Source of the DNA: an uncultured Candidatus Saccharibacteria bacterium
GTDB lineage: Bacteria; Patescibacteriota; Minisyncoccia; Phycocordibacterales; UBA2100
NCBI GenBank assembly: GCA_964434285.1
Contig: CAYSUJ010000001.1
Location: 168,703 to 232,702, forward strand
Reading direction: 5' to 3'
DNA length: 64,000 nt
Of this stretch, positions 21,358 through 43,589 are shown in pieces (position 1 is the first letter of the stretch; the number at the start of each line of letters is the position of its first letter). A program made the translations under genes and the position numbers. The notes below the pieces were generated by a model. It had not been told where the DNA came from, did not search any database, and saw nothing but the letters and a program-made list of their open reading frames with translations.

Positions 21358-21429
21358 TTCCGCGGTAGCTCAATGGTAGAGCAGCTCGCTGTTAACGAGT
21401 TGGTTGTAGGTTCGAGTCCTACCCGCGGA
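21358..21429 (+). tRNA. tRNA-Asn (anticodon GUU)
   Basis: Acceptor TCCGCGG/CCGCGGA, D-arm GCTC-AATGGTA-GAGC, anticodon stem GCTCG/CGAGT with loop CT-GTT-AA, T-arm GTAGG-TTCGAGT-CCTAC, discriminator G; no CCA encoded. Confidence 0.85.
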
Positions 21430-22990
21430 GCACGACAGGATGAGAGGAGCCGAAAGGCTCCTTTTGTCCAATGTTTGCAACCCTTTTTCGCGGTTCTGAA
21501 ATCTTATTGAGCCTTGGCACCCAATTTGCCAAGAAATCGAACGCTAAAGTGTACTCCGGTTTGATCTCACGACCCTCAAGAGCGATGGTCGAGAATGCGT
21601 AACTCAACAACAGCCGCCGATCATCCGTCGTGGCGTCTTCGCTTTCGTAGATTTCCTTGGCGACGGATGCAAGTTCGTGTATCGCATATCCGGCTTCGTA
21701 GTATTTCCTGTTGCCTTTGTTGAGGCGTGCGATTTCATTGGTTGCATCTTCTTTCTGCGCACTGTATTGCTTGAAGAGACGGTCATACGTCTCGACGCTG
21801 ATCTTGCCGTCTAGCTTGTCTTCGTACAGCGCTTCGAGCCGGCGCTGGGATCGCTCAATCGTCATGTTCAATTCCGCAAGCTTTGAGTTGAAGCGTGCTA
21901 TCTCATCCACGTGGCTTTCTTTCAGCGCTTCATTCAGAACATCTAAGACACGCTTGTTCTTCGGTGCAACCTTGAGCAACATCGGGAGCAATTTCTCTTC
22001 CACCTTTTCCTGTCGGACGAAAACGTGACGTTGTTCGCATTTTTGATCCATTCCCGCACGCTTATAGCCGTTGCAATGACCGTACCAATGACCTTTCTGT
22101 CGTTCCCATGTGACGGAGCCGCCGCAAGTCGTGCAGCACATCTTCGCCTTGAATACCGGAATGTGTTTATTGAATTGCGGCTGGTTCAACGTGCGGCTGA
22201 GAAGTAGTTGTACGCGATCGAACAATTCGCGGCTGATGAGACCCTCATGCTTTGCCGGCATGACATCGCCCTTCCACCTGAGGGCGCCATAATAAAACGG
22301 ATCCCTAAGCAAGTCGTACATTCTGCTGCGGCCGACCTTCTTTCCCGCATGATTGCGCAAACCCTCGTCGTACATCGCTGCGGAGAGATTTACGACCGAG
22401 TAATTTCCAGAGGAGTACAACTCAAACATTTTCCTGAGAAACCGAGCCCGAGCCTCGTCGATTACATGGATTTTGTGCCCTTTCTCACCGATGGTCTTGT
22501 ATCCGAGCGGCGGTTTTGTCGGCAACCAGCCCTGCGCGATCTTTTCCTTCTGCCCCTTCTTCACTTCTTCGGAGAGGTTCGAGATATACTTTTTCGCGAG
22601 AACAATCTCGATATCCCAGCGAAACTTCTCGTCGGACTTCGCTTCCTTGTGAATGACCAGATTCTGTTTTACGAAATGAACTTTGCGTCGAGCGTCCGCC
22701 TCGATCCAATCATTGACGGCGACCGCATCTTTCATGTTGCGCGTAAGACGGTCTACCTTTTCACACAAAAGATTGCTGATCTGGTGCTTTTCCATGTAGC
22801 GCATCATCTCGTAGAAGACGGCACGCTGTTTCGATCCGCTAGCCGATTCGGAGATCGAAAACACCTTTACGATCTCGTACTGTTTTCGCGCCGCGTAGTC
22901 AGCGAGCAGCTTCTCCTGCGCCGGCAAAGAATATCCGGCCTCCTCTTGCTCCCGCGAACTCACACGTGCGTACACCAACGATTTCTCCAT
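21419..22990 (-). CDS. large serine recombinase (integrase): resolvase-type catalytic domain YARVSSREQ, recombinase domain, zinc-ribbon CxxC...C, coiled-coil tail
   Basis: The catalytic Ser motif lies in YARVSSREQ. The 523-aa length and Cys cluster (CCTTCGGS...HWYGHCNGY) are typical of large serine integrases. The stop overlaps the 3' end of tRNA-Asn. Confidence 0.85.
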   Translation of the reverse strand: MEKSLVYARVSSREQEEAGYSLPAQEKLLADYAARKQYEIVKVFSISESASGSKQRAVFYEMMRYMEKHQISNLLCEKVDRLTRNMKDAVAVNDWIEADARRKVHFVKQNLVIHKEAKSDEKFRWDIEIVLAKKYISNLSEEVKKGQKEKIAQGWLPTKPPLGYKTIGEKGHKIHVIDEARARFLRKMFELYSSGNYSVVNLSAAMYDEGLRNHAGKKVGRSRMYDLLRDPFYYGALRWKGDVMPAKHEGLISRELFDRVQLLLSRTLNQPQFNKHIPVFKAKMCCTTCGGSVTWERQKGHWYGHCNGYKRAGMDQKCEQRHVFVRQEKVEEKLLPMLLKVAPKNKRVLDVLNEALKESHVDEIARFNSKLAELNMTIERSQRRLEALYEDKLDGKISVETYDRLFKQYSAQKEDATNEIARLNKGNRKYYEAGYAIHELASVAKEIYESEDATTDDRRLLLSYAFSTIALEGREIKPEYTLAFDFLANWVPRLNKISEPRKRVANIGQKEPFGSSHPVVLRG

Positions 22991-23108
22991 ATGCCTATTA
23001 TGCCGGGCTTTTTTGTTTCTTAGAGCCCTTATTGGCTTGTTATGTGTGGGTAAAGCGCCTGTGGGGCGAAAATCGACCGCTTTTCGCCCCTATAGTGCAT
23101 AGAATCCT

Positions 23109-23211
23109 GTATCGTCACTATGTGAGATAGAACACAGTAAGGCTTAGGATATAACCGGTAAGCATAGTGATTACATAAGCAATACATAGCTATAGTATTG
23201 GTGACGATACA
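23109..23211. promoter_or_regulatory. 10-bp perfect inverted repeat GTATCGTCAC ... GTGACGATAC, arms 83 bp apart, upstream of the recombinase gene
   Basis: Read directly from the sequence. A separate GGGGCGAAAA-n8-TTTTCGCCCC hairpin lies at 23063-23090. Confidence 0.3.
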
Positions 23212-23219
23212 ACTTCTGC

Positions 23220-23504
23220 TTACGCAGAAGTTACTTTGAGATACTCTTCTATGATTTTATTTTGTAATTCCTTCCAGAGCTCGGGCGCAGCAAAGAAAAT
23301 ATTCTTATACTCGCCAACACTATCCGCGTACGAAGGAGGAGCTACCCAAATCGGATTACCTTCCGAATCGTAGTGTCCGGTATCGTCGTACATCCCTCTC
23401 AAGATTTTGAAGCCGACGATGCGAAATCCGTCGACCTTCATATCACCGATTTCGATGACAGCCATTCCAAGCACTTTTCCCCGGCGCACAGTTTGCACCT
23501 TCAT
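23220..23504 (-). CDS. SpoVG-family protein (nucleic-acid-binding regulator homolog)
   Basis: Shares a similar central pattern with Bacillus SpoVG: GMAVIEIGD.KVDGFRIVGF ... NPIWVAPPSYADSVGEYKNIFFAAPELWKELQNKIIEEYLK versus SpoVG ...[54 protein letters not shown]. Confidence 0.5.
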   Translation of the reverse strand: MKVQTVRRGKVLGMAVIEIGDMKVDGFRIVGFKILRGMYDDTGHYDSEGNPIWVAPPSYADSVGEYKNIFFAAPELWKELQNKIIEEYLKVTSA

Positions 23505-23577
23505 GCGACACTTCTTTAGGAACATAATTACCAGTGCAGCTTGGTTGATAATCTCGACCAAATCAAAAGGTCCGACG

Positions 23578-23808
23578 CTATCCCATAGGCGGTTCGGACT
23601 TTTTGATTACTGATTTGTGGCGCAGCCGCGCGAGAGTATCGAAGTAACCCGTGAGATCACCGAGTATCTGCTCGGCTTCTTCAAATGAAACATCACGGCC
23701 GTAGTCTTCGGCGAGTATTGTTCTTAGTTTTTCTGATAGGTGCGGGCTGACCATGCAAGCCCGTTCCTGCCCGGTGAATTTGAACGCTCGAAAGCATCCG
23801 CCGGGCAA
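23578..23808 (-). CDS. small hypothetical protein
   Basis: ORF in tandem with the neighbouring island genes; no motif recognised. Confidence 0.3.
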   Translation of the reverse strand: MPGGCFRAFKFTGQERACMVSPHLSEKLRTILAEDYGRDVSFEEAEQILGDLTGYFDTLARLRHKSVIKKSEPPMG

Positions 23809-23873: not shown

Positions 23874-24653
23874 TCAAAAATTGCGAGAAATGGACTTTCG
23901 TTCCCATGTGAAAAGCTTGTCATTTGTGGCGAAACTTTTTTGCACTCTTTCGTTGGCTCTGTAGAGCGTATCCCGCACCGTACGCTCAATCTTGGAGAGG
24001 GATTTCTTGAGCCGCTTTTGTTTGTCCATCGGGTCATGCCCGAGCATTTTTTCCGCGACCTCTGACCAGTCTACAGAGCTGCGCGCAGGTGCAGCAAACA
24101 TGATCGAACAAAAATCTCGCAGGTTGCTATTTGGAGGCAACTGACAGATTTTTGTTCCGAAATAGATTGCTCCTTCTTTCTCTGAATATCTAATCTGATA
24201 CGAACCAAGGGATATCGGAGCACCTTCTGGAGCAGTGGAAGAACTTGCCAGCAGATCCATATAGTAACGATGGAACTTGCCGTAGGCGTTGCGTATTTTT
24301 TCCTTCAGACTTTGATAGTCATCCAGCATCTTGCGCTCGGCATGTATTGAAAAAACTCCCTTGCGCGGATCGAGCCCGAATTGCAGTGACAACAGCTCGT
24401 CTAGTTCATTCACGCTCTTTCTGAAACTGTCGAAAATCGGTGCAACATTCACGTCGCGAACTGTAAATCCAACTGTACGAAATCTCTCCTTCAGAAGGTC
24501 GAGATTCGCTGCATACGTTATGTGATAGACATCATCCTGCAATAACTGATCGCGCAAACGCTCGACATCCGCCTGCGGGAATATGCGTGCGATCTCGTCA
24601 ATAACCTGCTCATCAGTGCGAAAAACCGAGCTGTGTGGCTCGCGAGCGTTCAT
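23874..24653 (-). CDS. hypothetical protein, 259 aa
   Basis: Intact ORF heading a three-gene minus-strand string in the island; no motif recognised. Confidence 0.4.
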   Translation of the reverse strand: MNAREPHSSVFRTDEQVIDEIARIFPQADVERLRDQLLQDDVYHITYAANLDLLKERFRTVGFTVRDVNVAPIFDSFRKSVNELDELLSLQFGLDPRKGVFSIHAERKMLDDYQSLKEKIRNAYGKFHRYYMDLLASSSTAPEGAPISLGSYQIRYSEKEGAIYFGTKICQLPPNSNLRDFCSIMFAAPARSSVDWSEVAEKMLGHDPMDKQKRLKKSLSKIERTVRDTLYRANERVQKSFATNDKLFTWERKSISRNF

Positions 24654-24883
24654 GCCGGAATGCTACCTTTTCCGGCCCCTTAGCGGCAAGCGGGTAGCCT
24701 GCTACAATGCCCGTGTCGCTCACAGAGCGATTTGCCTAAACTCGTCGGAAACGGCGGGCATGGCAAAAAGACAGATCATGCCCAGAAACCCGTCACGGGG
24801 TTCGCATGATCTGCCGTATGGGGAAACCCATATGCCCGTGGCGGTTTTTTGCTGCCCGGATTTATAAAATTATTCGGGATAAC

Positions 24884-25339
24884 ATGGAACACAAACATAT
24901 TTGGGACAAGGTTCTCGGCTCTAACGAGCATGTGAAGTACGAATTTACGGTGGGATCGCAGTATCGAATGGTCGGTTTGGTCGGTTTATCAGTCATCGGT
25001 CTTTTGAGTTTCTTCTGGCTCTGGCAGATGGCGATATTCATTATTGCGATCGCCCTCTTTTATTACGGTTTCTACCTCAAAGCAGCGAACGCGTACGCGT
25101 TTACCGACCGCCGCGTACTGGTCCATCAAGGCTGGCTATCTACCCGCATGATCACGACGGAGTATCAAAAGATTACCGATGTGACAGTCCTCGAGCCTCT
25201 CATCCAGCGCCTTATATTCGCCTCAGGAACGCTTGTAGTGAACACGGCGGGCTCCAAGACCGAGGAGATCGTTCTCAGCAACGTCGAGCGCCCCTACGAG
25301 CTCAAGAAGAAGTTAGACGAGATGCGTGGGCACCACTAA
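24884..25339 (+). CDS. membrane-flanked bacterial PH-domain protein (bPH_2 / YdbS-YdbT-like)
   Basis: Two TM helices, then AYAFTDRRVLVHQGWLSTRMITTEYQKITDVTV.EPLIQRLIFASGTLVVNTAG, the typical bPH_2 pattern. ATG at 24884. Confidence 0.55.
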   Translation: MEHKHIWDKVLGSNEHVKYEFTVGSQYRMVGLVGLSVIGLLSFFWLWQMAIFIIAIALFYYGFYLKAANAYAFTDRRVLVHQGWLSTRMITTEYQKITDVTVLEPLIQRLIFASGTLVVNTAGSKTEEIVLSNVERPYELKKKLDEMRGHH

Positions 25340-25726: not shown

Positions 25727-25940
25727 ATGGGCACTTATATAGTTTCTTCGAAAATGTGGGAAAAGTAGACAAAAGTCAGACCCGAATCTCGTAAATACTG
25801 GACGTATCATGGGCACTTTTAGCACATCGGTACTTCTGGCGGAATGCGACTTTGGGCACCTTTTGTGGAGATCACTGCACCTAGTGCAGTAAGGTCTGTC
25901 ACTAGACTCAATCGTCTCCTCGTGGCACGCTGATGGGCAC
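25727..25940 (+). promoter_or_regulatory. four direct repeats of TGGGCAC(T/C) at 25727, 25810, 25853 and 25934 (the last overlaps the kinase ATG), plus the palindrome CTGCAC-cta-GTGCAG at 25875-25889
   Basis: Read directly: aTGGGCACTTatat, aTGGGCACTTttag, tTGGGCACCTtttg, gaTGGGCACCatg. Confidence 0.35.
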
Positions 25941-27942
25941 CATGCTTTCTGAAATCAACGGCTACAAAACTAAGCCCGAGTGGTTCATCGGCAAAGGCAC
26001 TTTTGGTTCTGTATACAAGGCTGAAAAGGACGGTAAATTTTACGCTATCAAAGTATTCCAGTCGGAATTACTGCAAACGGAATACAGGTCTCGTATTGAT
26101 CAGGAAATCAAAGCAATACAGAAGATTTCACACCCGAACGTCGTGAAGCTCCACGACTATGGCACGTTCAAGGAGAACGACTTTGAGTACTTCTACACAG
26201 TGATGGATTTAGTTGAGGGACAACCGTTGAGTGATTTTGTTGGCACAGTAAACGAAGAGCGTAGTATTGAAATTATTGAATCCATATTGGATACAAACAC
26301 TTCCGTGCATGCGACCGGCATCATCCATCGTGATCTGAAGCCTGCGAATATCATGATCGATAAAAGTGGAACGCCCATCATCCTTGATTTCGGACTTGCG
26401 AAACTGATCGATTACAGTTCGATTACACAAACCGGCGAACGTGTCGGCACGTACTATTACATGTCGCCGGAACAAGTGACTGACAGTAAAAATATTGACG
26501 AGCGATCGGATTACTTCGCAGTCGGTATTATTTTCTACGAAATGCTTACAGGCGTGACTCCATACGACGCGACAAATCTGCCGGCACTCATCGACCAGAT
26601 AAAGAACGTATACCCGAAAAATCCTTCGGAGCGAAACGCGAGCATCACTAATCAGACCGAGAATGTGATCCTGCGCTTGCTCGAAAAAGCACCTCATCGA
26701 CGATTTCAAAATACCGCCGATGTCGTAAACGCTCTCAAAGAGATTCCGGAGGAGCGGCCAAAGAAACTTGATCTTTCAACGCGATATTTTGTTCGTCTCC
26801 AACATACAGAAAAAACACTGTTCGAAGACGCACTGAAAGCCAACTTGATTGACCGCGTTATCTTTCCCGCAAATTTCTTCAAGTTCTATCACCACACCGT
26901 GGACGTGTTGCGGAATTCAAAGATCCCGTTCACCACTGATCCGGCCACAAACCGATTGACATACACCGCTTTCTCAAAAACAGCGGGCGTTCAGGAACTT
27001 CCTTATTCCTCCGGGGACGAGGTGACGCCGATACAAAAGAAACATTTCCACTCCATCACTCAGGTCCAAGAGTTCGTTGCAAAAGTAATCACATTTCAGA
27101 TAACGAACGGCGTTACCGAACTTGCCGCGCCTTTCTTTTTTGCAAAAGACTCCGATGATGACTGGTTTAGTATCGACCTGAAACTGCTCAAAGAAGCAAT
27201 CGCGTACCGCGACCAACACCATCCTGACATGCCAATCTGGGGAGGAATCTGCATGAATGTTGAGAATTGGCACGACGACGAAGAGAAGAACAAAATCCTG
27301 AACCACTATGTAAAAGCGGCTCCCGATGGCTTCTTTGTATACGGCGATCCGATCGGCAACCAATCGAACCTGACCCAGTTGTTCCACTACGGCGATCTCC
27401 TCAAAAAATTACAAGCATCGGCCCAAGTCCCGGTAATCGCTTGCCGTGTAAACGGTCTCGGTCTCATTTATTACAGCAACGGTGTTTCTGGTCTCTCATC
27501 AGGCATTGCCGCGCTCGATAACTTCCGAGAAGGAATTTTATCCGATACCCAAGACGGATATTCGATGGATCCTCGCTACTATGTTCCCGAACTTCTTACG
27601 ATGGTCTCGCTCAAAAAAGGCGTCACGACAAAACTCAAAGACCTTGCCAATTCCAGTGTCGGTAAGAACTTTTCCTGCAAATGCCCACATTGCAAAGGCA
27701 TCCTTACCTCCGCGTCACTCTCGACGCGAGCGATGAAATTGCACTTTTTACATGTGCGTCGTGCGGAATTGGCGGAACTAGAGGCGCTCAAGCCCGAGGA
27801 ACGCCTGGACCACATGGAAAAACGAGTTGCGCAGGCAATCAGCTACAGTAAAACCTTATCGAAGGAAAATATTGAGGTCGGTGATTTCTCGCATCTTGGC
27901 ATGTGGCTCACTCTGATCCAGCAATTCAAGAAGCATAGCTGA
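25933..27942 (+). CDS. eukaryotic-type Ser/Thr protein kinase domain (residues 1 to about 270) fused to a roughly 400-aa C-terminal domain of unknown function containing a CKCPHCKG zinc-knuckle-like motif
   Basis: Gly-loop GKGTFGSVY, VAIK-type YAIKVF, catalytic loop HRDLKPANIM, DFGLAK, SPE-like MSPEQ. The C-terminal 400 aa match nothing I recognise. Low-GC gene. Confidence 0.8.
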   Translation: MGTMLSEINGYKTKPEWFIGKGTFGSVYKAEKDGKFYAIKVFQSELLQTEYRSRIDQEIKAIQKISHPNVVKLHDYGTFKENDFEYFYTVMDLVEGQPLSDFVGTVNEERSIEIIESILDTNTSVHATGIIHRDLKPANIMIDKSGTPIILDFGLAKLIDYSSITQTGERVGTYYYMSPEQVTDSKNIDERSDYFAVGIIFYEMLTGVTPYDATNLPALIDQIKNVYPKNPSERNASITNQTENVILRLLEKAPHRRFQNTADVVNALKEIPEERPKKLDLSTRYFVRLQHTEKTLFEDALKANLIDRVIFPANFFKFYHHTVDVLRNSKIPFTTDPATNRLTYTAFSKTAGVQELPYSSGDEVTPIQKKHFHSITQVQEFVAKVITFQITNGVTELAAPFFFAKDSDDDWFSIDLKLLKEAIAYRDQHHPDMPIWGGICMNVENWHDDEEKNKILNHYVKAAPDGFFVYGDPIGNQSNLTQLFHYGDLLKKLQASAQVPVIACRVNGLGLIYYSNGVSGLSSGIAALDNFREGILSDTQDGYSMDPRYYVPELLTMVSLKKGVTTKLKDLANSSVGKNFSCKCPHCKGILTSASLSTRAMKLHFLHVRRAELAELEALKPEERLDHMEKRVAQAISYSKTLSKENIEVGDFSHLGMWLTLIQQFKKHS

Positions 27943-29164: not shown

Positions 29165-29167
29165 ATA

Positions 29168-35642: not shown

Positions 35643-35648
35643 ACACTT

Positions 35649-37154
35649 TTATCGGAATTTTGTCTCGCGCTTGTGAGCCCTCCATTCGCGTGCGTGTTCG
35701 TCATGTTGGGCGGTGATATCGGACACAATCTTCAATTCACTCGCGTAGCTCGCCTTGAGGTTCCGAAATTCCGGATCCTTAAAAAGTTCTGGTTCGTTCG
35801 TAACCGCGTATACTGGGTCTATATGCCTCAACTTCACAGAAACTTCTTCGCCGATTGTCGCATCCTCTACAACACCGAGTTTGCGCATCAACTCTCTATT
35901 CCCCGCAGTGACTGACAACCTGAACTCGCGTTCGTTCAATTGATGTTTCAGATCGTTTCGGAGTATCTTTTTTCTCGACAATGCGGCATACGTACGCAAG
36001 TTATTCGTTCGGAGATACTGACGCATAAATTTCGGAAACATCGAGAGGAGCGGCGGGATCTCGGTCGGAGGCTTCACCCGACTGCTTGAAAATAACGTGT
36101 CGTACCATAGCTTCTCGAATTCCTGCGTCTGTTCGGTATGGAAATCGACTGGTTTCTGACCCCAATCAAGCATTTCCTCTGAGAACGCAATACTCATGCG
36201 GGCACAGAGCTCACGCAGCAACTCCTCCGGCGCGGCTCGTACATCAGTCGTATCGAACACGATATGTGATTTGCCTGTTGATTCAAGATACGCTACTTCC
36301 TCTGCAAGTTTCTTGAACTCCTCCTTCTCAAAATTCATCCGGCGCGGATTTGCTTTCAACACGCCCTCAAAAAACGCATAATCGCGCTCGGCGTACAATT
36401 TTCTGTCGACAAGATCCCGCCAGTTTATATATCCGTTCCTGCGAGCCATGAAGTCCAATAATTCGTTCTGTACAGTCATGACGGGTGTATCTTGTAGACG
36501 TTCAAGATTCTCTCCGTTGTGCAGAAAGTCGAGCGGTTCGGTGTAAGTCCCGCTCTGCACAGCGTCCGAGAACGCTACCCAGTTTGAAAAACCTTTCTCA
36601 GCCGCAGCATAATCGAGTAAATATCGCTGGAGATCGATGCTTGAGCGCATGTCAATCGTCGTCAACACGCGCCGTATCCGAGACTCGACGGACAATAGCG
36701 GGTTGCGTATCAGCACGACCACGGGATTGTGCGTGAGTTCGATTAACCGCACGTATTCTTTGTTCTTTCCGATCCAATGAGACATCTCCTTCACGGCTAC
36801 ACTTGTCCTTTCTCCGGACTGCTCGAATTGTTCTCCGCCGATTGATTCGTAAATTTGCTTATAGCCGTGATCGGGATCGAAATCGTCCCGCCGCGCGCCA
36901 AGAAACGGCTCGTGGCATTCATGTTGTATATCGGACGAATTGCCGACGACGTGCTCAATGAGGGAAGAATTTGTCCTGGGCGGCGCAATGATAATATGTA
37001 TCGAAAGCCGCCCGTCGCTAACGAGTTTCTGCAACTTTTCGTAGTATGAACCATTGCTCATGAGAAGAATGATAGCCGAGTTATCTGCATCCTCAAAGCC
37101 GTGAAAAACGTGGTTGAAAGCGGGTAATGCTCTCAACCACGAATTGCCGTTCAA
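35649..37154 (-). CDS. sulfotransferase-fold-like N-terminal domain (IIAPPRTNSSLI as a PAPS 5'-phosphosulfate-binding-like motif; IRNPLLSVESRIRR as a 3'-phosphate-binding-like R-N-P...S motif) plus a roughly 250-aa unknown C-terminal domain
   Basis: Motif-level resemblance only. A 4-nt ATGA overlap with the upstream kinase-like gene suggests translational coupling. Confidence 0.35.
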   Translation of the reverse strand: MNGNSWLRALPAFNHVFHGFEDADNSAIILLMSNGSYYEKLQKLVSDGRLSIHIIIAPPRTNSSLIEHVVGNSSDIQHECHEPFLGARRDDFDPDHGYKQIYESIGGEQFEQSGERTSVAVKEMSHWIGKNKEYVRLIELTHNPVVVLIRNPLLSVESRIRRVLTTIDMRSSIDLQRYLLDYAAAEKGFSNWVAFSDAVQSGTYTEPLDFLHNGENLERLQDTPVMTVQNELLDFMARRNGYINWRDLVDRKLYAERDYAFFEGVLKANPRRMNFEKEEFKKLAEEVAYLESTGKSHIVFDTTDVRAAPEELLRELCARMSIAFSEEMLDWGQKPVDFHTEQTQEFEKLWYDTLFSSSRVKPPTEIPPLLSMFPKFMRQYLRTNNLRTYAALSRKKILRNDLKHQLNEREFRLSVTAGNRELMRKLGVVEDATIGEEVSVKLRHIDPVYAVTNEPELFKDPEFRNLKASYASELKIVSDITAQHDEHAREWRAHKRETKFR

Positions 37155-37738
37155 AGAGCTGCTTCGATAATCCGCAGAGCGTTATCGAGTTTCGCCGCCC
37201 GATTCCTTCCGGTGACGATTCGAATGGGCAGGCCGTCTCGAATAAAACCAGCTATCTGTTTCTCCCAGTTCCGAGCCTCGCGGATACGTCTTGTGATCTC
37301 TCGCGCAGAAGATCCTCGTACAGTAAGACGTCTCCGAATCTCAGGTTCGGGAGGTGGCGCGATATGCAAGAACGCTCCCCGATTGCCGAGACGTTCCCAC
37401 CAGCGAGGAATATTGCCAGGCGTGATGGGTCGGATGGATAGAGATTTGCGCTCCAGCGATGCTTTTATACTCGCTTCGCGCATGCCGTAATAGTTGCGGG
37501 AGAACTTCGTGTACACGAAGAACTCTCCACGGGCTACCGCGGCTTCGAACTCGCCCTTCGAGATATACTCATACTCGCCGGAAAAATCTTCGTCACGAGG
37601 TCTCCTCGTCGTTGTCGATGTCATGAACATCGATCTAGGCATCGAGCGTAGCAGACCTTCTGTCAACGTACTCTTCCCCACCCCAGAGGCCCCAGTAATG
37701 AGAACGATCCGTAGATTACGTCTGTGGGTCTTGTTCAC
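37151..37738 (-). CDS. guanylate-kinase-like P-loop nucleoside monophosphate kinase
   Basis: Walker A ITGASGVGKSTL, then STTTRRPRDEDFSGEYEYISKGEFE (the Gmk S-x-TTR-x-PR...G-x-Y-x-F signature) and ...YYG. Confidence 0.6.
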   Translation of the reverse strand: MNKTHRRNLRIVLITGASGVGKSTLTEGLLRSMPRSMFMTSTTTRRPRDEDFSGEYEYISKGEFEAAVARGEFFVYTKFSRNYYGMREASIKASLERKSLSIRPITPGNIPRWWERLGNRGAFLHIAPPPEPEIRRRLTVRGSSAREITRRIREARNWEKQIAGFIRDGLPIRIVTGRNRAAKLDNALRIIEAAL

Positions 37739-38008
37739 ATCAACCTCCTATTTTCACCACGACTGCATACACCCTAGCGTAACTGACATCTGAGTGCAAC
37801 GAAGATAACGTTCCCAGTCGACAGCTTAAAAACGCGAGAGTCGTGTCGCATTTGTCGTATTTACATTTTGACCCAAAGCGACCCGTCCGCGTCAGAACCT
37901 ATCACCAAGAAACCTTTGGATTGCTTCACATCGACGGTGTGTGGACCTATACTGGGAGCATAGATACATACAGCAGACTTGCGCCATGTTAAGGTGTGAG
38001 TTCGGGAT

Positions 38009-38473
38009 ATGAAAAGCTACACACATACGCAGATTGGTTATTTGATGATTTGCGTCACACTTCTGGTGCTCACACTCTTCGTGTGGGTGCAGATGACGGC
38101 GCGCGCCGAACCCCCTTCCCCCGATTCCGGAACGAATCTTTTGGTGACTGCTGTGATGGCATTGATACTCGTCGTCCTCGGGTCACTCTCGACACTGACC
38201 ATCTCTCTTGACGAACAGTCTCTCCGTATTCGTTTCGGTTGGGGCATTTTCCACAAACGGTTTCCCCTCTCCGACATCGCAACATTTCAAAAGACCAAAA
38301 ATCATTGGTATTACGGTTGGGGAATCCGATTCTGGCTCTGGCCCAAGATGTGGATTTTCAACGTTTCTGGTTTTGACGCAGTGGAGCTCACTATGAAAAA
38401 TGGAGACGTATATCGCATCGGCACCGATGAGCCTGACGCACTTCTCGGTGCGCTTACCCGAGCGACACACTAG
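38009..38473 (+). CDS. membrane protein, two N-terminal TM helices plus a PH-like C-terminal domain
   Basis: Hydropathy and a bPH-like pattern; no confident family. Confidence 0.45.
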   Translation: MKSYTHTQIGYLMICVTLLVLTLFVWVQMTARAEPPSPDSGTNLLVTAVMALILVVLGSLSTLTISLDEQSLRIRFGWGIFHKRFPLSDIATFQKTKNHWYYGWGIRFWLWPKMWIFNVSGFDAVELTMKNGDVYRIGTDEPDALLGALTRATH

Positions 38474-38640
38474 CACTCAGACCACTACTCCCTCATCTCT
38501 TTCAGTTTCGAGAAGGCACAATTATTTCCCTTTGGGCCTCGGGTACGCAAAGGAGGTATTAATTGTGCCTGTCCCCTTTATTATCCTGGAAAGACTATTG
38601 AGTCGTGACAAGGTGTAGTATTGTTTCTTCTGCCGACTGA

Positions 38641-39213
38641 GTGTTTTCAATGAAAAAAATGAAAAAGCTTTCCATCATTGGTGTCGTCGTCTTGATTTTT
38701 AGTGGCGGTTGGTACCTTTTCACAGACAGTAACTCGACGCAAAAAGTACAAGAGGGTGGCTCAAATCCTCTCAACACGACATATGTGATTGATGGCAGAC
38801 CATATGCTCTGAAAGATGGTCTTTCTGAAGAAGCAATTCCGGCCTCAACTTCAAAAGTGGTAACGAGGTATTTTGGTAACGAGGTACGAACAGACTTAAA
38901 TGACGATGGACGAGAAGATGCGCTATTTCTCATCACACAAGAAACGGGAGGCACGGGAATTTTTTTCTATGTTGTTGCAGCGCTCAATACAGAGGATGGA
39001 TGGCGAGGTTCGCACGGACTTTTCCTGGGAGACCGTATAGCCCCACAAACAACAGCGCTGAGTCTCGATCCTTCTCACAAAAATATCATCGTGGTGAATT
39101 ACGCCGACAGAAATCCTGATGAACCAATGTCTGCACAACCTTCGATTGGCAAAAGTATGTGGCTTGAACTTGATCTTGAAACCCTGCAGTTTGGAGAAGT
39201 GGTCCGAAATTGA
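38641..39213 (+). CDS. secreted or membrane-anchored hypothetical protein
   Basis: N-terminal MKKMKKLSIIGVVVLIFSGGW signal anchor. Confidence 0.45.
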   Translation: MFSMKKMKKLSIIGVVVLIFSGGWYLFTDSNSTQKVQEGGSNPLNTTYVIDGRPYALKDGLSEEAIPASTSKVVTRYFGNEVRTDLNDDGREDALFLITQETGGTGIFFYVVAALNTEDGWRGSHGLFLGDRIAPQTTALSLDPSHKNIIVVNYADRNPDEPMSAQPSIGKSMWLELDLETLQFGEVVRN

Positions 39214-39305
39214 AAAGTCACTGACGAACATACGATGTCCGTCAGTGAGCTGAAAGGGGTTCGAGTTCGATCGTAGAAAGTTCATGAATTCAAAAGTATT
39301 TGATA

Positions 39306-39336: not shown

Positions 39337-39612
39337 ATGAAATACATGGACGAAAATAATAAGGCGAAGGTTAACCGTCGCCTCAAGCTTTTGGAGGGTC
39401 AGGTTCGAGGTCTTCAAAAGATGGTTGAGAACGATGCCTACTGCATCGACGTTATTACCCAAACATCGGCAGTAAAGCAGGGCTTGTCTAATGTCGAGGA
39501 TATGCTTCTTGAAAACCACCTTGGACATTGCGTTTTTCATCAAGTCCAATCTGGCCAAACAAAGAAAGCCACGGAGGAAATTATCAAAGTTTACAAGCTA
39601 AAGCGGAAATAA
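39337..39612 (+). CDS. csoR: CsoR/RcnR-family metal-sensing transcriptional repressor (copper-sensitive operon repressor)
   Basis: DUF156 pattern with the metal-ligand Cys (YCIDV) and H-x4-C (HLGHCVFH) motifs; sits upstream of copA. Confidence 0.8.
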   Translation: MKYMDENNKAKVNRRLKLLEGQVRGLQKMVENDAYCIDVITQTSAVKQGLSNVEDMLLENHLGHCVFHQVQSGQTKKATEEIIKVYKLKRK

Positions 39613-39613
39613 T

Positions 39614-41908
39614 ATGCATACACAGACCTACAAAGTAAAAGGAATGCATTGCGCCTCCTGCTCATCGGTCATCGAGAAGACTTTTAAGAAAGTCACGGGG
39701 GTAGAATCAGCGGAAGTTAACTACGGCACAGAAAAGGCCAAGGTATCGTTTGATCCGTCAAAAACAAACCCGCACGATCTCTCGAAACATATTGAACCGC
39801 TCGGCTACTCTCTGGAAATTCCAATGAGTGCTGAAGAAATGGGTATGAGTGAAAGCGAGCATGCAGCTCACCTCGGGCTTAACCAATCAAAGAAGGAAAA
39901 GCTCGCAGAAGTTGCGGATATGAAGACAAAGGTGCTCTCGGCCATTCCCCTTGCCATCATTGCCGCTTTTATCATGGGCTGGGATATTCTTGCGGAATAC
40001 AAAGTCGTGGCAGAAATGGATTACGCGGTGACGGAATTTTTTCACCACTTACTTCCTATTTTCGCGACGTACATCCTTTTTGTAGTGGGCAAGCCCTATT
40101 TGCTCGGTTTTTATAGATTCCTTCGTTATGGCAAGGCAAACATGGACACGCTGATCGGAATCGGGACCGTTTCCGCTTTTCTCTACAGTTTTGCCGTCAG
40201 CGCTTTTGAAGAAGCGCTTCGGCCTTTTATAAATGTTGAGTATCAATACTACGACGTGACGATTGTAGTCATTACGTTTATTGCTCTCGGAAAGTATCTT
40301 GAAGCGCGTTCAAAAATAAAGACGGGCGATGCAATTGAGAAATTGCTCAATCTCCAAGCCAAGACCGCGCTTGTCATCCGTGACGGCAAAGAAGTCGAGA
40401 TTGAAGCTGTCGACGTTAAACATGGTGATGTGGTCATTATCAAACCCGGCGCAAAGATTCCGGTGGACGGCGTAATAACCGAGGGCGGTTCCTTTATCGA
40501 CGAGTCTATGGTCACCGGCGAGCCGATGCCGAGGCATATGAAGATCGGCGATTCTGTCGTCGCCGGAACAATCAACGGGAGCGGCTCGTTTACTTTCAAG
40601 GCTACAAAAGTCGGGTCGGAGACCTTGCTCGCCCAGATTATAAAAATGGTCGAGGTTGCCCAAGGAAGTAAGGCGCCGATTCAGGCATTGGCTGACAAAA
40701 TTTCTGCGGTTTTTGTGCCAATCGTTCTTGTCATTGCGTTCCTTACGCTAGGCACTTGGCTCATTGTCGGCTCACAGTATCTTGGCTTCTCACAAGCACT
40801 CTCTTTCGGCCTCGTCTCGTTTGTAGGCATCCTTGTTATCGCATGTCCGTGTGCTTTGGGGCTTGCCACACCGACCGCCATCATCGTTGGCGTGGGCAAG
40901 GGTGCGAAAGAAGGCATTCTCATCAAAGATGCGGCGACTCTTGAGAAGCTTCACAAGGTCAATACGGTAGTGGTTGATAAAACGGGAACAATCACTAAAG
41001 GTAAGCCGACTCTGGTGCATATTCAGAATCTTTCCGATCTAAATGATAACGAATTGGTGTCGGTTATTGCTTCGTTAGAAAAGAAGTCCGAGCATCCGAT
41101 TGCACATGCGATCGTAAGCTATGCAGAGGGGAAAAATATTGCGCTGTCAGAAATTTCGGAATTTGAAGGCATACAGGGCAAGGGATTAAAAGGTAGGTTC
41201 ATGGGAGTTGAATATTTTGTCGGTAACGCAAAACTCGTGAGCGACCTCAATCTTGCCTTTGACGCTGCACTACTGAACAAGTTTACCTCGGAGGGCAAGA
41301 CGCCAGTCATTCTCGCCACCAAAGATAAGGTACTCGGCTTTGTGATGGTGGCCGATGAGATAAAACAGGAGTCAAGGCAAGCTGTCGCTGATCTGTATAA
41401 GCTCGGAATCAAAGTGGTCATGCTTACCGGCGACGACGAAAAGGCCGCAAAATACATTGCCTCTCTGGTGGGAATTGGTGATGTTGTTGCTCATGTCTTA
41501 CCGCAAGACAAGCTCGAAAAAATACAGGCGATCCAGTCGCAAGGCGCAATTGTGGCCATGGCCGGCGACGGCGTGAATGACGCCCCAGCACTCGCCCAGG
41601 CGGATGTCGGTATCGCCATGGGAACCGGCACGGACGTGGCCATTGAGTCGGCTGGTATCACGCTTCTTGGTGGAGATATCTCAAAGTTGGTGAAGGCTAT
41701 CAGGCTGTCCAAAATCACCATGAGAGGCATCAAGCAAAACCTGTTCTGGGCATTTGTTTATAACATCGTAGGCATACCGCTTGCGGCAGGAGTCTTTTAT
41801 CCGCTTGGAGGATGGCTCTTAAATCCGGTCTTTGCCGGGTTCGCGATGGCTTTATCTAGCGTGTCAGTGGTGTCGAATTCACTGAGAATTAAAGCTAAAA
41901 AAATATAA
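39614..41908 (+). CDS. copA: copper-translocating P1B-type ATPase
   Basis: N-terminal HMA domain GMHCASC, CPC in TM6, DKTGT phosphorylation site, GDGVNDAPAL. Confidence 0.9.
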   Translation: MHTQTYKVKGMHCASCSSVIEKTFKKVTGVESAEVNYGTEKAKVSFDPSKTNPHDLSKHIEPLGYSLEIPMSAEEMGMSESEHAAHLGLNQSKKEKLAEVADMKTKVLSAIPLAIIAAFIMGWDILAEYKVVAEMDYAVTEFFHHLLPIFATYILFVVGKPYLLGFYRFLRYGKANMDTLIGIGTVSAFLYSFAVSAFEEALRPFINVEYQYYDVTIVVITFIALGKYLEARSKIKTGDAIEKLLNLQAKTALVIRDGKEVEIEAVDVKHGDVVIIKPGAKIPVDGVITEGGSFIDESMVTGEPMPRHMKIGDSVVAGTINGSGSFTFKATKVGSETLLAQIIKMVEVAQGSKAPIQALADKISAVFVPIVLVIAFLTLGTWLIVGSQYLGFSQALSFGLVSFVGILVIACPCALGLATPTAIIVGVGKGAKEGILIKDAATLEKLHKVNTVVVDKTGTITKGKPTLVHIQNLSDLNDNELVSVIASLEKKSEHPIAHAIVSYAEGKNIALSEISEFEGIQGKGLKGRFMGVEYFVGNAKLVSDLNLAFDAALLNKFTSEGKTPVILATKDKVLGFVMVADEIKQESRQAVADLYKLGIKVVMLTGDDEKAAKYIASLVGIGDVVAHVLPQDKLEKIQAIQSQGAIVAMAGDGVNDAPALAQADVGIAMGTGTDVAIESAGITLLGGDISKLVKAIRLSKITMRGIKQNLFWAFVYNIVGIPLAAGVFYPLGGWLLNPVFAGFAMALSSVSVVSNSLRIKAKKI

Positions 41909-41910
41909 CT

Positions 41911-42981
41911 ATGAATACATATACATTCCACGTTTCCGGCACTCACTGCGCTTCATGCAAGATCTTCATTGAAGATACGTTGAACGAGCAGCTTGGTATC
42001 GAGCGTGCAAACGTCGATCTGAAGAACGAAACCGTATCGTTTGATACAACCCTTAAAGAAGACCAGCAACAACTTGCAGATATGCTCTCGGAAAAAATTA
42101 AACGCAACGGATACGCTCTTTCAGTCCCGCCTCCGCAGGGCTACGGACGGGCAAGCGAGAAAATGGTAAAACAGAAGGATGGTCAGGGGCTTATTTGGCA
42201 AGCACTGCCGATCGGACTTGGGTTTCTGATTCTGTTTTTCTTACTGCAAAAGTCCGGCATTCTTAATCTCGGACTCGGCGGGGAGATTTTGCCCGTCACC
42301 AGTTTTATTATCGGTCTCATTGCGTCAGTATCATCGTGTCTCGCAATAGTTGGCGGCTTGGTCTTATCGCTTTCGGCCAAAATATCGCAGGACAATATAA
42401 GCGACACCCGCCTTCGCGCGAGGCTACGGACGGGCGAGGCAAAAACGTTCACACTTTTCCATGTGGGCAGGCTTGCCAGCTTTGCGGTGTTGGGCGGCGT
42501 TTTGGGGGCAATCGGTAGCGCGATAGGTATTAATTTCACGTTTACGGCAATCTTGGGCATCCTGGCATCGGTGGTGATGTTACTCTTGGGACTGAACTTG
42601 GTCGGAATTTTTGAAAAAAATAAGATCGCTCTGCCCTCAGGAATTTTCAATTTTTTCCGTAGAATCGAGCATAAAACATTTACCCCACTTGTTCTCGGTT
42701 TTGCCACGTTTTTCCTGCCCTGTGGATTTACGCAATCGATGCAGGTTCAGGCATTAAGCAGCGGATCGTTCATGTCGGGACTTACTATCATGCTCGCATT
42801 TGCTTTGGGGACCTTACCGATGCTTCTACTTCTTTCTTTCGGCTCTGCATCGTTTGCTCACGGAAAGCACGCCCCACTATTCTTCAAATCTGCCGGAATA
42901 GTCGTCATCGGCCTCGGACTGTTCGCGCTTCTCGCAGGGCTTGCCGGACTTGGAATTATTCCTCCGCTATTTAATATCTAA
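41911..42981 (+). CDS. HMA (CxxC copper-chaperone-like) domain fused to a multi-TM membrane domain of the DsbD/CcdA-like or TauE-like type
   Basis: GTHCASCKIFIED then about 8 TM helices; typical accessory of cop operons. Confidence 0.6.
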   Translation: MNTYTFHVSGTHCASCKIFIEDTLNEQLGIERANVDLKNETVSFDTTLKEDQQQLADMLSEKIKRNGYALSVPPPQGYGRASEKMVKQKDGQGLIWQALPIGLGFLILFFLLQKSGILNLGLGGEILPVTSFIIGLIASVSSCLAIVGGLVLSLSAKISQDNISDTRLRARLRTGEAKTFTLFHVGRLASFAVLGGVLGAIGSAIGINFTFTAILGILASVVMLLLGLNLVGIFEKNKIALPSGIFNFFRRIEHKTFTPLVLGFATFFLPCGFTQSMQVQALSSGSFMSGLTIMLAFALGTLPMLLLLSFGSASFAHGKHAPLFFKSAGIVVIGLGLFALLAGLAGLGIIPPLFNI

Positions 42982-42993
42982 TGTACCTAATGT

Positions 42994-43389
42994 ATGTATA
43001 AAACCGCTTCAATAATCATAACGGTCGCGCTTGTGATTGGTGTCGGCATTGTGTTTTTGGGACAGTCACGAAATAACCCTGGCTCCAGCGGAACTGCATC
43101 GGTGCAAAACGTTGAAATACGAGACGGAGTTCAGTATGTCACCATCAATGCGCGGGGCGGCTACTCGCCCAAAGTGTCTACCGCACAAGCGAATATTCCG
43201 ACAAAATTAATCGTGAAAACAAACGGCACATACGACTGTTCCGCTTCATTGGTCATAAGGTCAATCGGTTATCAGAAAATCTTGCCTAATACCGGAGAAG
43301 AAATAATAGACCTAGGCACTCCGCAAGCCGGAACATTTCAGGGGCTTTGCAGCATGGGAATGTACAATTTCGCGCTTAATTTTAATTAA
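42994..43389 (+). CDS. membrane-anchored cupredoxin-like domain protein
   Basis: N-terminal TM; Cys/Met-containing beta-rich domain (YDCSASLVI...GLCSMGMY) as in cupredoxin_1-type proteins of cop loci. Confidence 0.5.
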   Translation: MYKTASIIITVALVIGVGIVFLGQSRNNPGSSGTASVQNVEIRDGVQYVTINARGGYSPKVSTAQANIPTKLIVKTNGTYDCSASLVIRSIGYQKILPNTGEEIIDLGTPQAGTFQGLCSMGMYNFALNFN

Positions 43390-43589
43390 CGTGTTTTTTC
43401 GCTCTTTCCACACGTCGATGCATTGCTCAACAGAGCACGTATCGCATGCAATTCCCATAGCGCCCGCTTCCGGTCAGTAGCTCCCTGGCCAGACAGGCTG
43501 AACTCGCTCAATTTAAAGTGGAATCTGACTCCACTGTATTTTTTCGACTCATCAGAGAGAATACTGCAAAAATCTTCTCCTTTTTAAAA

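What the first reader, a model, noticed from the sequence alone, without database searches (positions are those of the whole stretch)
21358..43400. About 20-kb low-GC integrative island at tRNA-Asn, opened by a large serine recombinase
The 523-aa serine integrase (YARVSSREQ catalytic motif, zinc ribbon) ends inside the 3' end of tRNA-Asn(GUU), the classic integrase/attachment-site configuration. Everything downstream to about 43.4 kb is visibly AT-richer than the core: kinase gene about 45% GC by eye, against about 55-60% for pbp2 and proS. The cargo has no capsid or tail genes. Instead it carries signalling and nucleotide-processing enzymes, restriction debris, a metal-resistance module and two further insertion sequences. 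This looks like a cargo-rich, non-phage integrative element carrying possible defence and metal-resistance genes.
Basis: partly seen in the sequence, partly recalled or inferred. Interest (0 to 1): 0.6.

Follow-up and report, generated by a model that had tools for sequence, protein, structure and literature searches.

The report
Self-splitting serine-integrase element at tRNA-Asn
The integrase next to tRNA-Asn belongs to a real mobile element, but that element is only 10.3 kb long; its attachment site lies inside the integrase gene, so insertion cuts off the gene's last 32 codons, and the same design recurs in many related elements of these tiny uncultured (CPR) bacteria.

Summary
tRNA-Asn(GUU), the convergent 523-aa large serine recombinase (LSR) overlapping it by 13 nt, the listed cargo and a modest composition dip are all present. 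The island does not run to 43.4 kb.

- **Boundaries.** The LSR element is 10,293 bp. A 5-bp core, GAGCA, sits at 21428-21432 (attL, the extreme 3' end of the tRNA) and at 31721-31725 (attR).
- **Split gene.** The last 32 codons of the integrase lie at attR (31622-31720, minus strand). Joining the two ends restores an in-frame 553-aa protein. Its tail matches that of unsplit homologues, one of them on a circular 7.7-kb contig.
- **Family.** The host is a CPR/Patescibacteria bacterium. Of 80 metagenome loci with homologues (44-58% identity), 43 have a tRNA convergent with the integrase 3' end: 31 Asn, the rest Gln, Asp, Ser, Leu, Glu or Tyr. Ten show the split tail 7-11 kb upstream.
- **The rest of the interval.** 31.7-44.1 kb holds an HsdR fragment, an IS3, the copper operon and an IS200-like fragment. 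It lies outside the att sites and is a separate variable region.

The nearest concept is the archaeal SSV-type "suicidal" tyrosine integrase. I found no published description of this serine version.

The parts
21359..21431 (+). tRNA-Asn(GUU), intact. This is the host side (B arm) of attL.
   Evidence: ARAGORN; sequence.
21428..21432 (.). attL common core GAGCA: last acceptor base, discriminator and the first trailer bases of the tRNA. The crossover must lie within it.
   Evidence: Only identity shared by attL and attR. The same (T)GCTC core, read in integrase sense, occurs in related loci.
21446..21465 (+). Element-supplied hairpin GGAGCC-GAAA-GGCTCC followed by TTTTGT. It replaces the tRNA's own terminator and also encodes ...KEPFGSS... 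of the integrase on the other strand.
   Evidence: Read directly from the sequence. The simple terminator scan did not call it.
21419..22990 (-). Large serine recombinase, integrated-form ORF of 523 aa. Element DNA supplies codons 1-520, codon 521 lies in the shared core, and the last two codons (RG) and the stop are tRNA antisense.
   Evidence: Pfam PF00239, PF07508, PF13408; PHROG integrase; PDB A118 and TP901-1 integrases; more than 2000 homologues.
23220..23561 (-). 113-aa ORF with only a weak, sub-threshold SpoVG-like match. Function unknown.
   Evidence: one weak relative in L075.
23578..23754 (-). Conserved small gene (58 aa), co-oriented with and upstream of the integrase. Candidate regulator or directionality factor (inferred).
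   Evidence: tblastn matches in 28 integrase loci, always on the integrase strand. 57% identical in L107. No Pfam or PHROG match.
23874..24653 (-). 259-aa protein of unknown function, shared with the sister element L107 and with L066.
   Evidence: 37-38% identity; no Pfam match.
24806..25339 (+). Membrane protein with a bacterial PH domain (bPH_2).
   Evidence: Pfam 1.4e-13.
25933..27942 (+). Ser/Thr protein kinase: Hanks-type kinase domain at residues 19-279 plus an uncharacterised C-terminal half of about 390 aa. Cargo.
   Evidence: Pfam 5e-50; PknB-like in PDB; PD-T4-6 models match the kinase domain only. A 66%-identical copy sits in another element of the family, at tRNA-Asp (L053).
27926..28618 (-). 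230-aa partner of the kinase, no known family. The lowest-GC gene of those measured (0.411).
   Evidence: 61% identical and adjacent to the kinase in L053; no Pfam, PADLOC or PDB match; GC.
28652..31545 (.). Nucleotide- and hydrolase-type cargo: NUDIX (28652-29164, -), NUDIX (29168-29773, -), HAD-like fragment (29757-30140, -), alpha/beta hydrolase (30137-30949, -), CYTH (30976-31545, +).
   Evidence: Pfam.
31622..31720 (-). Detached 3' end of the integrase gene: 32 codons AWQVAFRTYDWAKAFPDPEVATRQIRGLLTLS plus the stop. This is the P-arm side of attR.
   Evidence: tblastn to 9-12 loci. In frame with the integrase body after att joining. The same tail ends unsplit integrases. Tail HMM gives 25 hits, all on the integrase strand.
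31721..31725 (.). attR common core GAGCA.
   Evidence: Element-side similarity to L107 stops exactly here.
31747..31774 (+). Strong terminator hairpin (12-bp stem plus T-rich tail) 22 nt beyond the core. Best read as the original tRNA-Asn terminator, displaced by 10.3 kb.
   Evidence: Terminator scan.
31817..39300 (.). Contents: endonuclease-like NOV_C ORF, HsdR C-terminal fragment (32261-33856, -), IS3 orfA/orfB (33951-35020, +), NUDIX (35121-35642, -), sulfotransferase-like protein (35649-37154, -), guanylate-kinase-like P-loop protein (37151-37738, -), and unassigned ORFs.
   Evidence: Pfam. No integrase or tail remnant. Intermediate composition.
39337..43389 (+). Outside the element: copper module csoR - P1B-type ATPase - HMA-DsbD_2 membrane protein - cupredoxin.
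   Evidence: Pfam. Atypical tetranucleotide content, r = 0.54-0.60.
43827..44102 (-). Outside the element: truncated IS200/IS605-type Y1 transposase fragment at the right edge of the low-GC stretch.
   Evidence: Pfam PF01797, 7.9e-21, profile positions 2-77 of 121; source gene call.

Best explanation
Positions 21428-31725 are a 10.3-kb integrative element of a CPR (Patescibacteria) bacterium. Its own large serine recombinase inserted it at the extreme 3' end of tRNA-Asn(GUU).

**What the sequence shows**
- attP lies inside the integrase ORF, in the stretch coding a flexible linker ahead of a conserved C-terminal tail of about 32 aa.
- attP x attB recombination, within the 5-bp identity GAGCA, leaves the tRNA intact. 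The element supplies a new trailer and hairpin.
- The integrase body ends up reading antisense into the tRNA (...SHPVVL-RG-stop).
- The tail codons are stranded 10.3 kb away at attR, next to the tRNA's original terminator.
- Excision would rebuild both a 553-aa integrase and the original tRNA 3' flank.
- The element carries a kinase with a 230-aa partner, plus NUDIX, CYTH and hydrolase genes. It has no virion or conjugation genes, and none of the primase-type genes found in some relatives.

**What is inferred**
- The integrated and excised states make different integrase isoforms.
- This difference biases direction or stability of the enzyme.
- The conserved 58-aa gene may assist.

- 31.7-44.1 kb is a separate, independently acquired variable region.
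For: **This window**
- Only a 5-bp core is shared by the two ends, and no tRNA fragment is repeated.
- Joining 21433 to 31725 gives an uninterrupted 553-aa ORF. The offset of 10,293 nt keeps the frame.
- A 12-bp-stem terminator lies 22 nt beyond attR.

**The tail is integrase coding sequence**
- The tail peptide ends unsplit homologues in frame: L068, L051, L065, L085, L099, and P0024, P0036, P0052, P0057, P0089, P0106, P0115.
- One unsplit integrase sits on a contig with a 127-nt terminal overlap, the signature of a 7.7-kb circle.
- About 20 distinct detached tails (28 entries listed, several in duplicate) keep an open frame and a stop at a conserved length.
- Third codon positions vary most, 5215/3796/6846 for positions 1/2/3.
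- The tail HMM hits only the integrase strand, 25 against 0.

**Family pattern**
- Of 80 metagenome loci, 43 have a tRNA convergent with the integrase 3' end; 19 are uninformative because the contig ends there.
- In 9 loci, joining the cores rebuilds the tail in frame, with element sizes of 6.1-10.8 kb.

**Sister element**
- L107 has the same host synteny and the same tRNA-Asn, with an integrase 81% identical.
- Its similarity to the window ends exactly at GAGCA on both sides.

**Structure**
- AlphaFold of an unsplit homologue shows the standard LSR body, a disordered linker (residues 496-513) where the core lies, and then a small helical tail with pLDDT 66-88.
Against: - No empty attB or circular attP junction of this particular element was recovered, so its current mobility is unproven.
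- 14 of 24 comparable loci show no tail within the 10 kb or less that was fetched.
- Some unsplit integrases sit in long, apparently chromosomal contigs: L068 next to cobQ, and L033 in a 647-kb contig. An unsplit gene therefore does not always mean an excised element.
- This element lacks the primase/helicase-type genes of some relatives and could be a non-autonomous or decaying copy.
- The function of the tail is untested.
Confidence: 0.85

Rival explanations
1. One reading: one integrative island of about 22 kb, running from tRNA-Asn to about 43.4 kb, mobilised as a unit by the serine recombinase, with the RM debris, the insertion sequences and the copper module as its cargo.
For: The whole 22-44 kb stretch is lower in GC and atypical in tetranucleotide content. 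Insertion sequences and an HsdR fragment suggest foreign DNA.
Against: - The integrase's detached tail, the shared core and the displaced tRNA terminator lie at 31.72 kb.
- There is no second tail, integrase remnant or tRNA fragment further right.
- Delimited relatives measure 6-11 kb.
- In L107, similarity to the window ends at the core.
- The composition profile shows two separate minima, at 23-31 kb and 37-44 kb, with an intermediate stretch between them.
Confidence: 0.04
2. Accreted hotspot. The 10.3-kb LSR element is the newest arrival in a variable region downstream of tRNA-Asn. The 31.7-44.1 kb stretch holds older, independently acquired and partly decayed mobile DNA: an RM remnant cut by IS3, and a copper operon next to an IS200-like fragment. 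This extends the best explanation rather than replacing it.
For: - Atypical composition.
- A truncated HsdR abutting IS3 and a truncated Y1 transposase.
- The region is absent from the corresponding flank of L107, which has MAPEG and glyoxalase genes instead, and from L004.
Against: - No integrase, att remnant or direct repeat delimits it.
- Comparable low-GC or atypical patches occur elsewhere in the window, at 6-8 kb and 49-54 kb. Composition alone is therefore weak evidence.
- No close relative with a conserved right flank could be fetched.
Confidence: 0.55
3. Fossil element. The insertion is real but no longer mobile, and the truncated integrase is an inactive or domesticated remnant fixed beside the tRNA.
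For: - No excised form or empty site of this element was found.
- The element lacks the replication-type genes seen in relatives.
- The integrated-form ORF lacks the conserved tail.
Against: - The integrase body is a full-length open frame whose residues match the family's invariant columns.
- The detached tail is still an intact ORF with its stop, and the cores are identical.
- The closest genome lacks both the tRNA and the integrase at this locus, and a sister species carries different cargo at the same site. Both point to recent turnover.
Confidence: 0.2

Closest known systems
Large serine integrases of phages and integrative elements (A118/LI, TP901-1, phiC31, Bxb1, SPbeta SprA)
   Same: - Domain order: catalytic domain, recombinase domain, zinc ribbon with coiled coil.
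- Short att sites with only a few identical bases at the crossover.
- The integrase gene abuts attP.
   Different: - Here attP lies inside the integrase coding sequence.
- The target is the extreme 3' end of a tRNA gene. By my recollection serine integrases usually target protein-coding or intergenic sites. In mycobacteriophages, tRNA-overlapping attB sites are reported for the tyrosine integrases (PMC9262239).
- The protein has an extra C-terminal region with a linker and a detachable tail.
SSV-type 'suicidal' tyrosine integrases of archaeal viruses and plasmids (SSV1, pT26-2; PMC7253208)
   Same: - The recombination site lies within the integrase ORF.
- Integration into the host genome splits the integrase gene.
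- Target specificity varies within the family (here).
- SSV-type elements target tRNA genes (my own knowledge), as this family does.
   Different: - Tyrosine rather than serine chemistry, and archaea rather than CPR bacteria.
- The SSV split yields two inactive pseudogenes. Here only the last 32 codons are removed, and all recognisable catalytic and DNA-binding domains stay in one ORF.
Integration-dependent immunity of mycobacteriophages (BPs, Brujita; reviewed in PMC9262239)
   Same: attP lies in the 3' end of a phage gene. Integration at a tRNA gene removes a C-terminal peptide, and host DNA supplies the new stop codon, so the integrated and free states make different protein isoforms.
   Different: - There the split gene is the repressor, not the integrase.
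- The integrase there is a tyrosine recombinase with a 35-bp common core.
- The peptide removed there is an ssrA-like degradation tag. No such role has been shown for the tail here.
tRNA-gene genomic islands with tyrosine integrases (Islander-type islands; PMC4383910)
   Same: An integrase-bearing cargo island at the 3' end of a tRNA gene, with the tRNA kept functional.
   Different: No displaced tRNA fragment or long direct repeat marks the far end: only 5 bp are shared. The enzyme is a serine recombinase.

Membership tests
Large serine recombinase (serine integrase) | N-terminal resolvase-type catalytic domain with the nucleophilic serine | tested here: met
   PF00239, 1.9e-19, residues 6-154; motif YARVSSREQ; R9, S11 and S12 invariant in the alignment; TP901-1 catalytic domain in PDB.
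Large serine recombinase (serine integrase) | C-terminal recombinase domain plus zinc-ribbon domain with an embedded coiled coil; length far above that of small resolvases and invertases | tested here: met
   PF07508, 1.7e-12. PF13408 scores 23.1 bits, just under its cutoff of 25.3. A118 integrase C-terminal domain matches residues 174-363. The AlphaFold model of a homologue shows the beta-rich zinc ribbon and long helices 355-418. Length is 523 or 553 aa.
Large serine recombinase (serine integrase) | Short att sites sharing only a small central identity, with no long direct repeats at the element ends | tested here: met
   5-bp core GAGCA. No longer repeat. Cores of 4-8 bp in related loci.
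Large serine recombinase (serine integrase) | Catalyses attP x attB integration, and attL x attR excision with a directionality factor | not testable with these tools
   This needs recombination assays. Both states are seen in the family (integrated loci and a circular contig), but not for this element.
Classical tRNA-gene genomic island (tyrosine-integrase type) | Tyrosine integrase | tested here: not met
   The only recombinase in the element is a serine recombinase.
Classical tRNA-gene genomic island (tyrosine-integrase type) | Displaced 3' tRNA fragment forming a direct repeat at the distal end | tested here: not met
   No second copy of the tRNA 3' end in 64 kb at up to 3 mismatches.
SSV-type suicidal integrase elements | attP located within the integrase ORF, so that integration splits the gene | tested here: met
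SSV-type suicidal integrase elements | Tyrosine recombinase of the SSV family; the split gives two inactive pseudogenes | tested here: not met
   This is a serine recombinase. The split removes only 32 C-terminal codons and leaves a 523-aa ORF with all domains.
Prophage | Capsid, terminase, portal or tail genes | tested here: not met
   Pfam (all major ORFs) and PHROGs (six element proteins) found only the integrase and the kinase as phage-related matches. No virion genes were recognised in the relatives L110 or L112 either.
Integrative conjugative or mobilisable element | Relaxase, type IV coupling protein or type IV secretion genes | tested here: not met
   No such Pfam family in any ORF of 21.4-31.7 kb.
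PD-T4-6 kinase antiphage defence | Full-length match to a PD-T4-6 protein and a defence phenotype | tested here: inconclusive
   PADLOC models match only the generic kinase domain, residues 18-280, at 3.8e-69. The 390-aa C-terminal half and the 230-aa partner match nothing.

The most novel reading that the evidence does not exclude
A CPR-wide family of small (about 6-12 kb) circular episomes uses a serine integrase whose attachment site is embedded in its own coding sequence and aimed at tRNA 3' ends. The free and integrated states therefore make different integrase isoforms, with or without a conserved 32-aa tail. This isoform swap may act as a built-in switch of direction or stability, replacing or supplementing a separate directionality factor. 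The elements would then be a main route by which these reduced genomes exchange cargo such as kinases, restriction-modification systems and NUDIX-type genes.
Probability: 0.3. Interest if true: 0.85.

Novelty: new variant of a known kind. Interest (0 to 1): 0.68.

Why it matters
- **Unusual target.** Serine integrases are prized genome-engineering tools and are thought to avoid tRNA targets. Their directionality normally depends on a separate factor.
- **A natural experiment in control.** In this family, which has many members (more than 2000 homologues), integration rewrites the enzyme's own C-terminus. That gives a natural test of how the enzyme is controlled. It is also a serine-recombinase counterpart to the archaeal "suicidal" integrases.
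- **A precise marker.** The split tail plus a tRNA 3' end is sequence-only, and it located element boundaries in 10 of 24 comparable loci. Mobile elements in CPR/Patescibacteria genomes are poorly known, and long direct repeats are absent, so this is useful.
- **For this window.** It corrects the island boundary by 12 kb and separates the copper and RM genes from the integrase's cargo.

Tried and rejected
- **tRNA repeat.** I searched for a direct repeat of the tRNA-Asn 3' end (up to 3 mismatches in 21-22 nt) and ran general repeat searches over 20-48 kb. Nothing beyond chance turned up.
- **Empty site in the nearest genome.** L004 (a Paceibacterota MAG, Fmt 78% identical) is syntenic only up to the gene before the tRNA. 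It has neither tRNA-Asn nor the integrase there, so it gives no empty site.
- **Exact-protein look-ups.** They returned only same-strain contigs for the integrase and for the AcCoA hydrolase. They found nothing for the first gene right of attR. The reconstructed 553-aa integrase could not be looked up.
- **Second element.** I looked for a second, decayed integrase or tail in 31.7-44 kb and found none.
- **IS3 ends.** No convincing terminal inverted repeats.
- **Virus or plasmid.** Pfam and PHROGs recognised no virion genes in L110 or L112. Only PrimPol, CHC2-primase and DUF5659 modules were recognised among the relatives.
- **L068.** Its unsplit integrase lies beside cobQ-type genes at 56% GC. 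An unsplit gene is therefore not proof of an excised state.
- **Defence role.** Only generic kinase and NUDIX matches.
- **Literature.** Eight searches found no description of tRNA-targeting, self-splitting serine integrases or of such elements in CPR.

Full report
**1. Observation**

ARAGORN finds tRNA-Asn(gtt) at 21359-21431 on the + strand. On the opposite strand, ORF 21419-22990 encodes 523 aa.
- It has Resolvase (1.9e-19) and Recombinase (1.7e-12) domains, and a just-sub-threshold recombinase zinc-ribbon domain.
- It matches the solved A118 and TP901-1 serine integrases and the PHROG integrase family.
- It is therefore a large serine recombinase (LSR), not a small resolvase.
- Its stop codon (CTA on the + strand, 21419-21421) lies in the tRNA T-arm. 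The ORF also runs through a hairpin just downstream of the tRNA.

- a bPH_2 protein, a Ser/Thr kinase, three NUDIX proteins, a HAD-like fragment, an alpha/beta hydrolase and CYTH;
- an HsdR C-terminal fragment and IS3 orfA/orfB;
- a sulfotransferase-like protein and a guanylate-kinase-like protein;
- csoR, a P-type ATPase, an HMA-DsbD_2 protein and a cupredoxin;
- a truncated IS200-type transposase.

The composition shift is real but modest.

| Region | GC | Tetranucleotide r to core |
|---|---|---|
| Left flank | 0.536 | 0.85-0.93 (both flanks) |
| 21.4-31.7 kb | 0.480 | minimum at 23-31 kb |
| 31.7-43.4 kb | 0.490 | intermediate at 31-37 kb, minimum at 37-44 kb |
| Right flank | 0.520 | 0.85-0.93 (both flanks) |

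Across 22-44 kb the correlation is 0.54-0.80. Another atypical patch lies at 49-54 kb. proS is 0.500 GC, not 55-60%.

**2. Host**

The nearest genome by Fmt (78% identity) is a Candidatus Paceibacterota MAG, and the next is Saccharibacteria at 39%. The window is therefore from a CPR/Patescibacteria bacterium. The MAG is syntenic with window 9.9-21.0 kb, then diverges. It has no tRNA-Asn or integrase there. Same-strain metagenome contigs cover parts of the window at 100% identity.

**3. The integrase family and tRNAs**

The integrase has more than 2000 homologues. The best 120 are 53-81% identical over the full length, and their names point to many CPR lineages. Their C-termini end in ...SHPxLLRG, or in peptides such as LLRDQDSNLQPTP. 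These are tRNA acceptor and T-arm sequences read antisense.

The 80 metagenome loci sort as follows:
- 43 have a tRNA convergent with, and usually overlapping, the integrase 3' end: 31 Asn(gtt), 5 Gln, 2 Asp, 2 Ser, and 1 each of Leu, Glu and Tyr;
- 19 are uninformative because the contig stops within 200 nt;
- 7 have an unsplit integrase;
- 11 are unclear.

**4. Finding the far end**

I compared window ORFs with these loci. A 33-aa peptide encoded at 31622-31720 on the - strand, LLAWxxAFRTYDWxKAFPDPE....LLxL-stop, recurs on the integrase strand 5-10 kb upstream of the integrase in nine loci. In L068 and L051 it lies directly at the end of the integrase, in the same frame. L065, L085 and L099, and at least seven database proteins, also end this way.

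The two ends in the window read as follows:
- attL: ...CCTACCCGCGGAGCA|CGACAGGATGAG...
- attR: ...CCTGCCAAGCGAGCA|AGGTGTTGGTGTG...

They share only GAGCA, at 21428-21432 and 31721-31725. Joining 21433 to 31725 gives one open frame of 553 aa...GSSHPVVL-AWQVAFRTYDW...GLLTLS. This matches the unsplit homologues, for example L068 ...YPVVLAWREAFRTYDW.... A 12-bp-stem terminator lies 22 nt beyond attR, where the tRNA's original terminator should be. There is no second tail or integrase remnant anywhere in the window. The element is therefore 10,293 bp.

**5. Family-level support**

- **In-frame rebuilding.** In nine loci, anchoring on the tRNA 3' end and the tail gives a shared core of 4-8 bp. It is usually (T)GCTC in integrase sense, and CTTGTGC at tRNA-Tyr. 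The integrase is rebuilt in frame, with element sizes of 6.1-10.8 kb. In four more loci the same GCTC core is visible by eye.
- **Strand specificity.** A tail HMM hits 25 peptides on the integrase strand and none on the other strand.
- **How often the tail is found.** Among 24 loci with a tRNA at the integrase end and at least 5 kb of upstream sequence, 10 show the tail at 7.0-11.1 kb. The other 14 show none within the fetched flank.
- **Coding constraint.** About 20 distinct detached tails (28 entries listed, several in duplicate) keep an open frame and a stop at a conserved length. Third codon positions vary most. The tail is thus under coding constraint even when separated from the gene.
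- **Sister element.** L107 lies in a related species with the same mreC...proS...mreB...def-fmt-HPF-tRNA-Asn synteny. Its integrase is 81% identical, and it shares the 58-aa and 259-aa genes but otherwise carries different cargo. Its similarity to the window stops exactly at GAGCA at both ends.
- **Circular form.** Contig L110 (7,798 bp) carries an unsplit integrase and has a 127-nt terminal overlap, the signature of a circular molecule.
- **Circular permutation.** L109 (11.7 kb) shows the circularly permuted gene order expected of a free form.

**6. What the elements carry**

- A 58-aa gene, at window 23578-23754, lies upstream of the integrase in 28 loci. It has no family match.
- Some relatives carry DUF5659, a protein with a CHC2 (DnaG-type) zinc ribbon, a protein of about 450 aa, or a PrimPol. 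Cargo in relatives includes methylases and restriction-type genes.
- No virion or conjugation genes were recognised.
- The window's element lacks the primase-type genes.
- Its kinase and 230-aa neighbour recur at 66% and 61% identity in another element of the family, at tRNA-Asp (L053). This two-gene module therefore travels with these elements.
- A defence role is only suggested. The evidence is generic kinase-domain matches to PD-T4-6 models and weak NUDIX matches.

**7. Mechanism**

*Shown by sequence.* attP lies in the integrase ORF, and the crossover falls within GAGCA at the discriminator end of the tRNA. Integration leaves the tRNA intact and gives it a new trailer and hairpin. It replaces the integrase's last 32 codons with two tRNA-antisense codons and a stop, and moves the tail and the old terminator 10.3 kb away.

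*Model support.* AlphaFold of an unsplit homologue (mean pLDDT 81) shows the usual LSR body. A disordered linker at residues 496-513 is where the core lies, followed by a small helical tail with pLDDT 66-88. The recombination site thus sits in linker-coding DNA.

*Inferred.* The free and integrated forms make different isoforms, and this could bias direction or stability. The 58-aa protein may take part.

**8.

The stretch 31.7-44.1 kb lies outside the att sites. It holds an endonuclease-like ORF, an N-terminally truncated HsdR abutting IS3, further enzymes, a copper-efflux operon and an IS200-like fragment. Its composition is atypical, and it is absent from the matching flanks of L107 and L004. 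It is most likely separately acquired DNA, but nothing delimits it.

**9. Comparison and novelty**

Eight literature searches found no description of such elements. The closest concepts are two.
- Archaeal SSV-type "suicidal" tyrosine integrases, whose att site lies within their ORF (PMC7253208).
- Integration-dependent immunity in mycobacteriophages, where integration at a tRNA trims a repressor (PMC9262239).

The present case is a member of the LSR family by domain tests. It differs in target, in the placement of attP, and in the detachable tail.

**10. Verdict**

The island is 10.3 kb, not about 22 kb. The self-splitting, tRNA-targeting serine integrase is the notable result.

Noticed in passing
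window 49000-54500: The most compositionally atypical stretch of the window (tetranucleotide correlation to the core down to 0.36). It contains two large minus-strand ORFs, 50732-52609 (625 aa) and 52627-54057 (476 aa), for which the source record lists no Pfam hit.
   Followed up: no
window 11407-12474 and 16964-18046: Two MreB paralogues about 42% identical lie 4.5 kb apart, flanking proS, a site-2 protease, RRF and holB. The arrangement is conserved in L004, L005 and L107.
   Followed up: no
L033 (Ga0209727_1000002, 647-kb contig), positions 551-649, 1186-1257, 10001-11647 and 20191-21534: Two tail-like peptides lie in tandem upstream of the integrase. The integrase itself is unsplit and has a divergent tail. 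A second, distantly related serine recombinase (29% identity) lies about 10 kb downstream. This may be a tandem array of elements in a chromosome.
   Followed up: partly
L110 (Ga0451520_0018642, 7,798 bp): The contig has a 127-nt terminal direct overlap, so it is a circular element of about 7.7 kb. It has an unsplit integrase and a 57-aa gene just upstream. Only one of its other genes has a Pfam match (DUF2726), and the one protein scanned against PHROGs had none.
   Followed up: partly
L053 (OBLY010000047.1), positions 484-3340 and 10001-11633: An element of about 11.1 kb at tRNA-Asp carries the same kinase plus 230-aa pair as the window (66% and 61% identity). This cargo module is shared between elements that use different tRNA targets.
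   Followed up: partly
L022-L101 (metagenome loci): 19 of 80 contigs stop within 200 nt of the integrase 3' end, that is, at the tRNA. The same-strain contig L001 also stops inside tRNA-Asn (window 21375). This could reflect mixed occupied and empty sites in the populations, or only repeat-induced assembly breaks.
   Followed up: no
L068 (Ga0307372_10005705), positions 5210-6979 and 7012-11801: An unsplit 589-aa integrase lies at 56% GC beside an epimerase-like gene and cobQ. This does not look like a CPR genome or a small episome, so the family may extend beyond CPR or use other sites.
   Followed up: partly
L004, positions 14725-18123: In the closest relative, synteny ends just past HPF. A 1132-aa ORF follows in a 40%-GC stretch, against about 52% around it. 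That genome appears to have a different insertion near the same spot.
   Followed up: no
window 6000-8000: A second low-GC patch (0.47) lies between tRNA-Pro and tRNA-Val. It was not examined.
   Followed up: no
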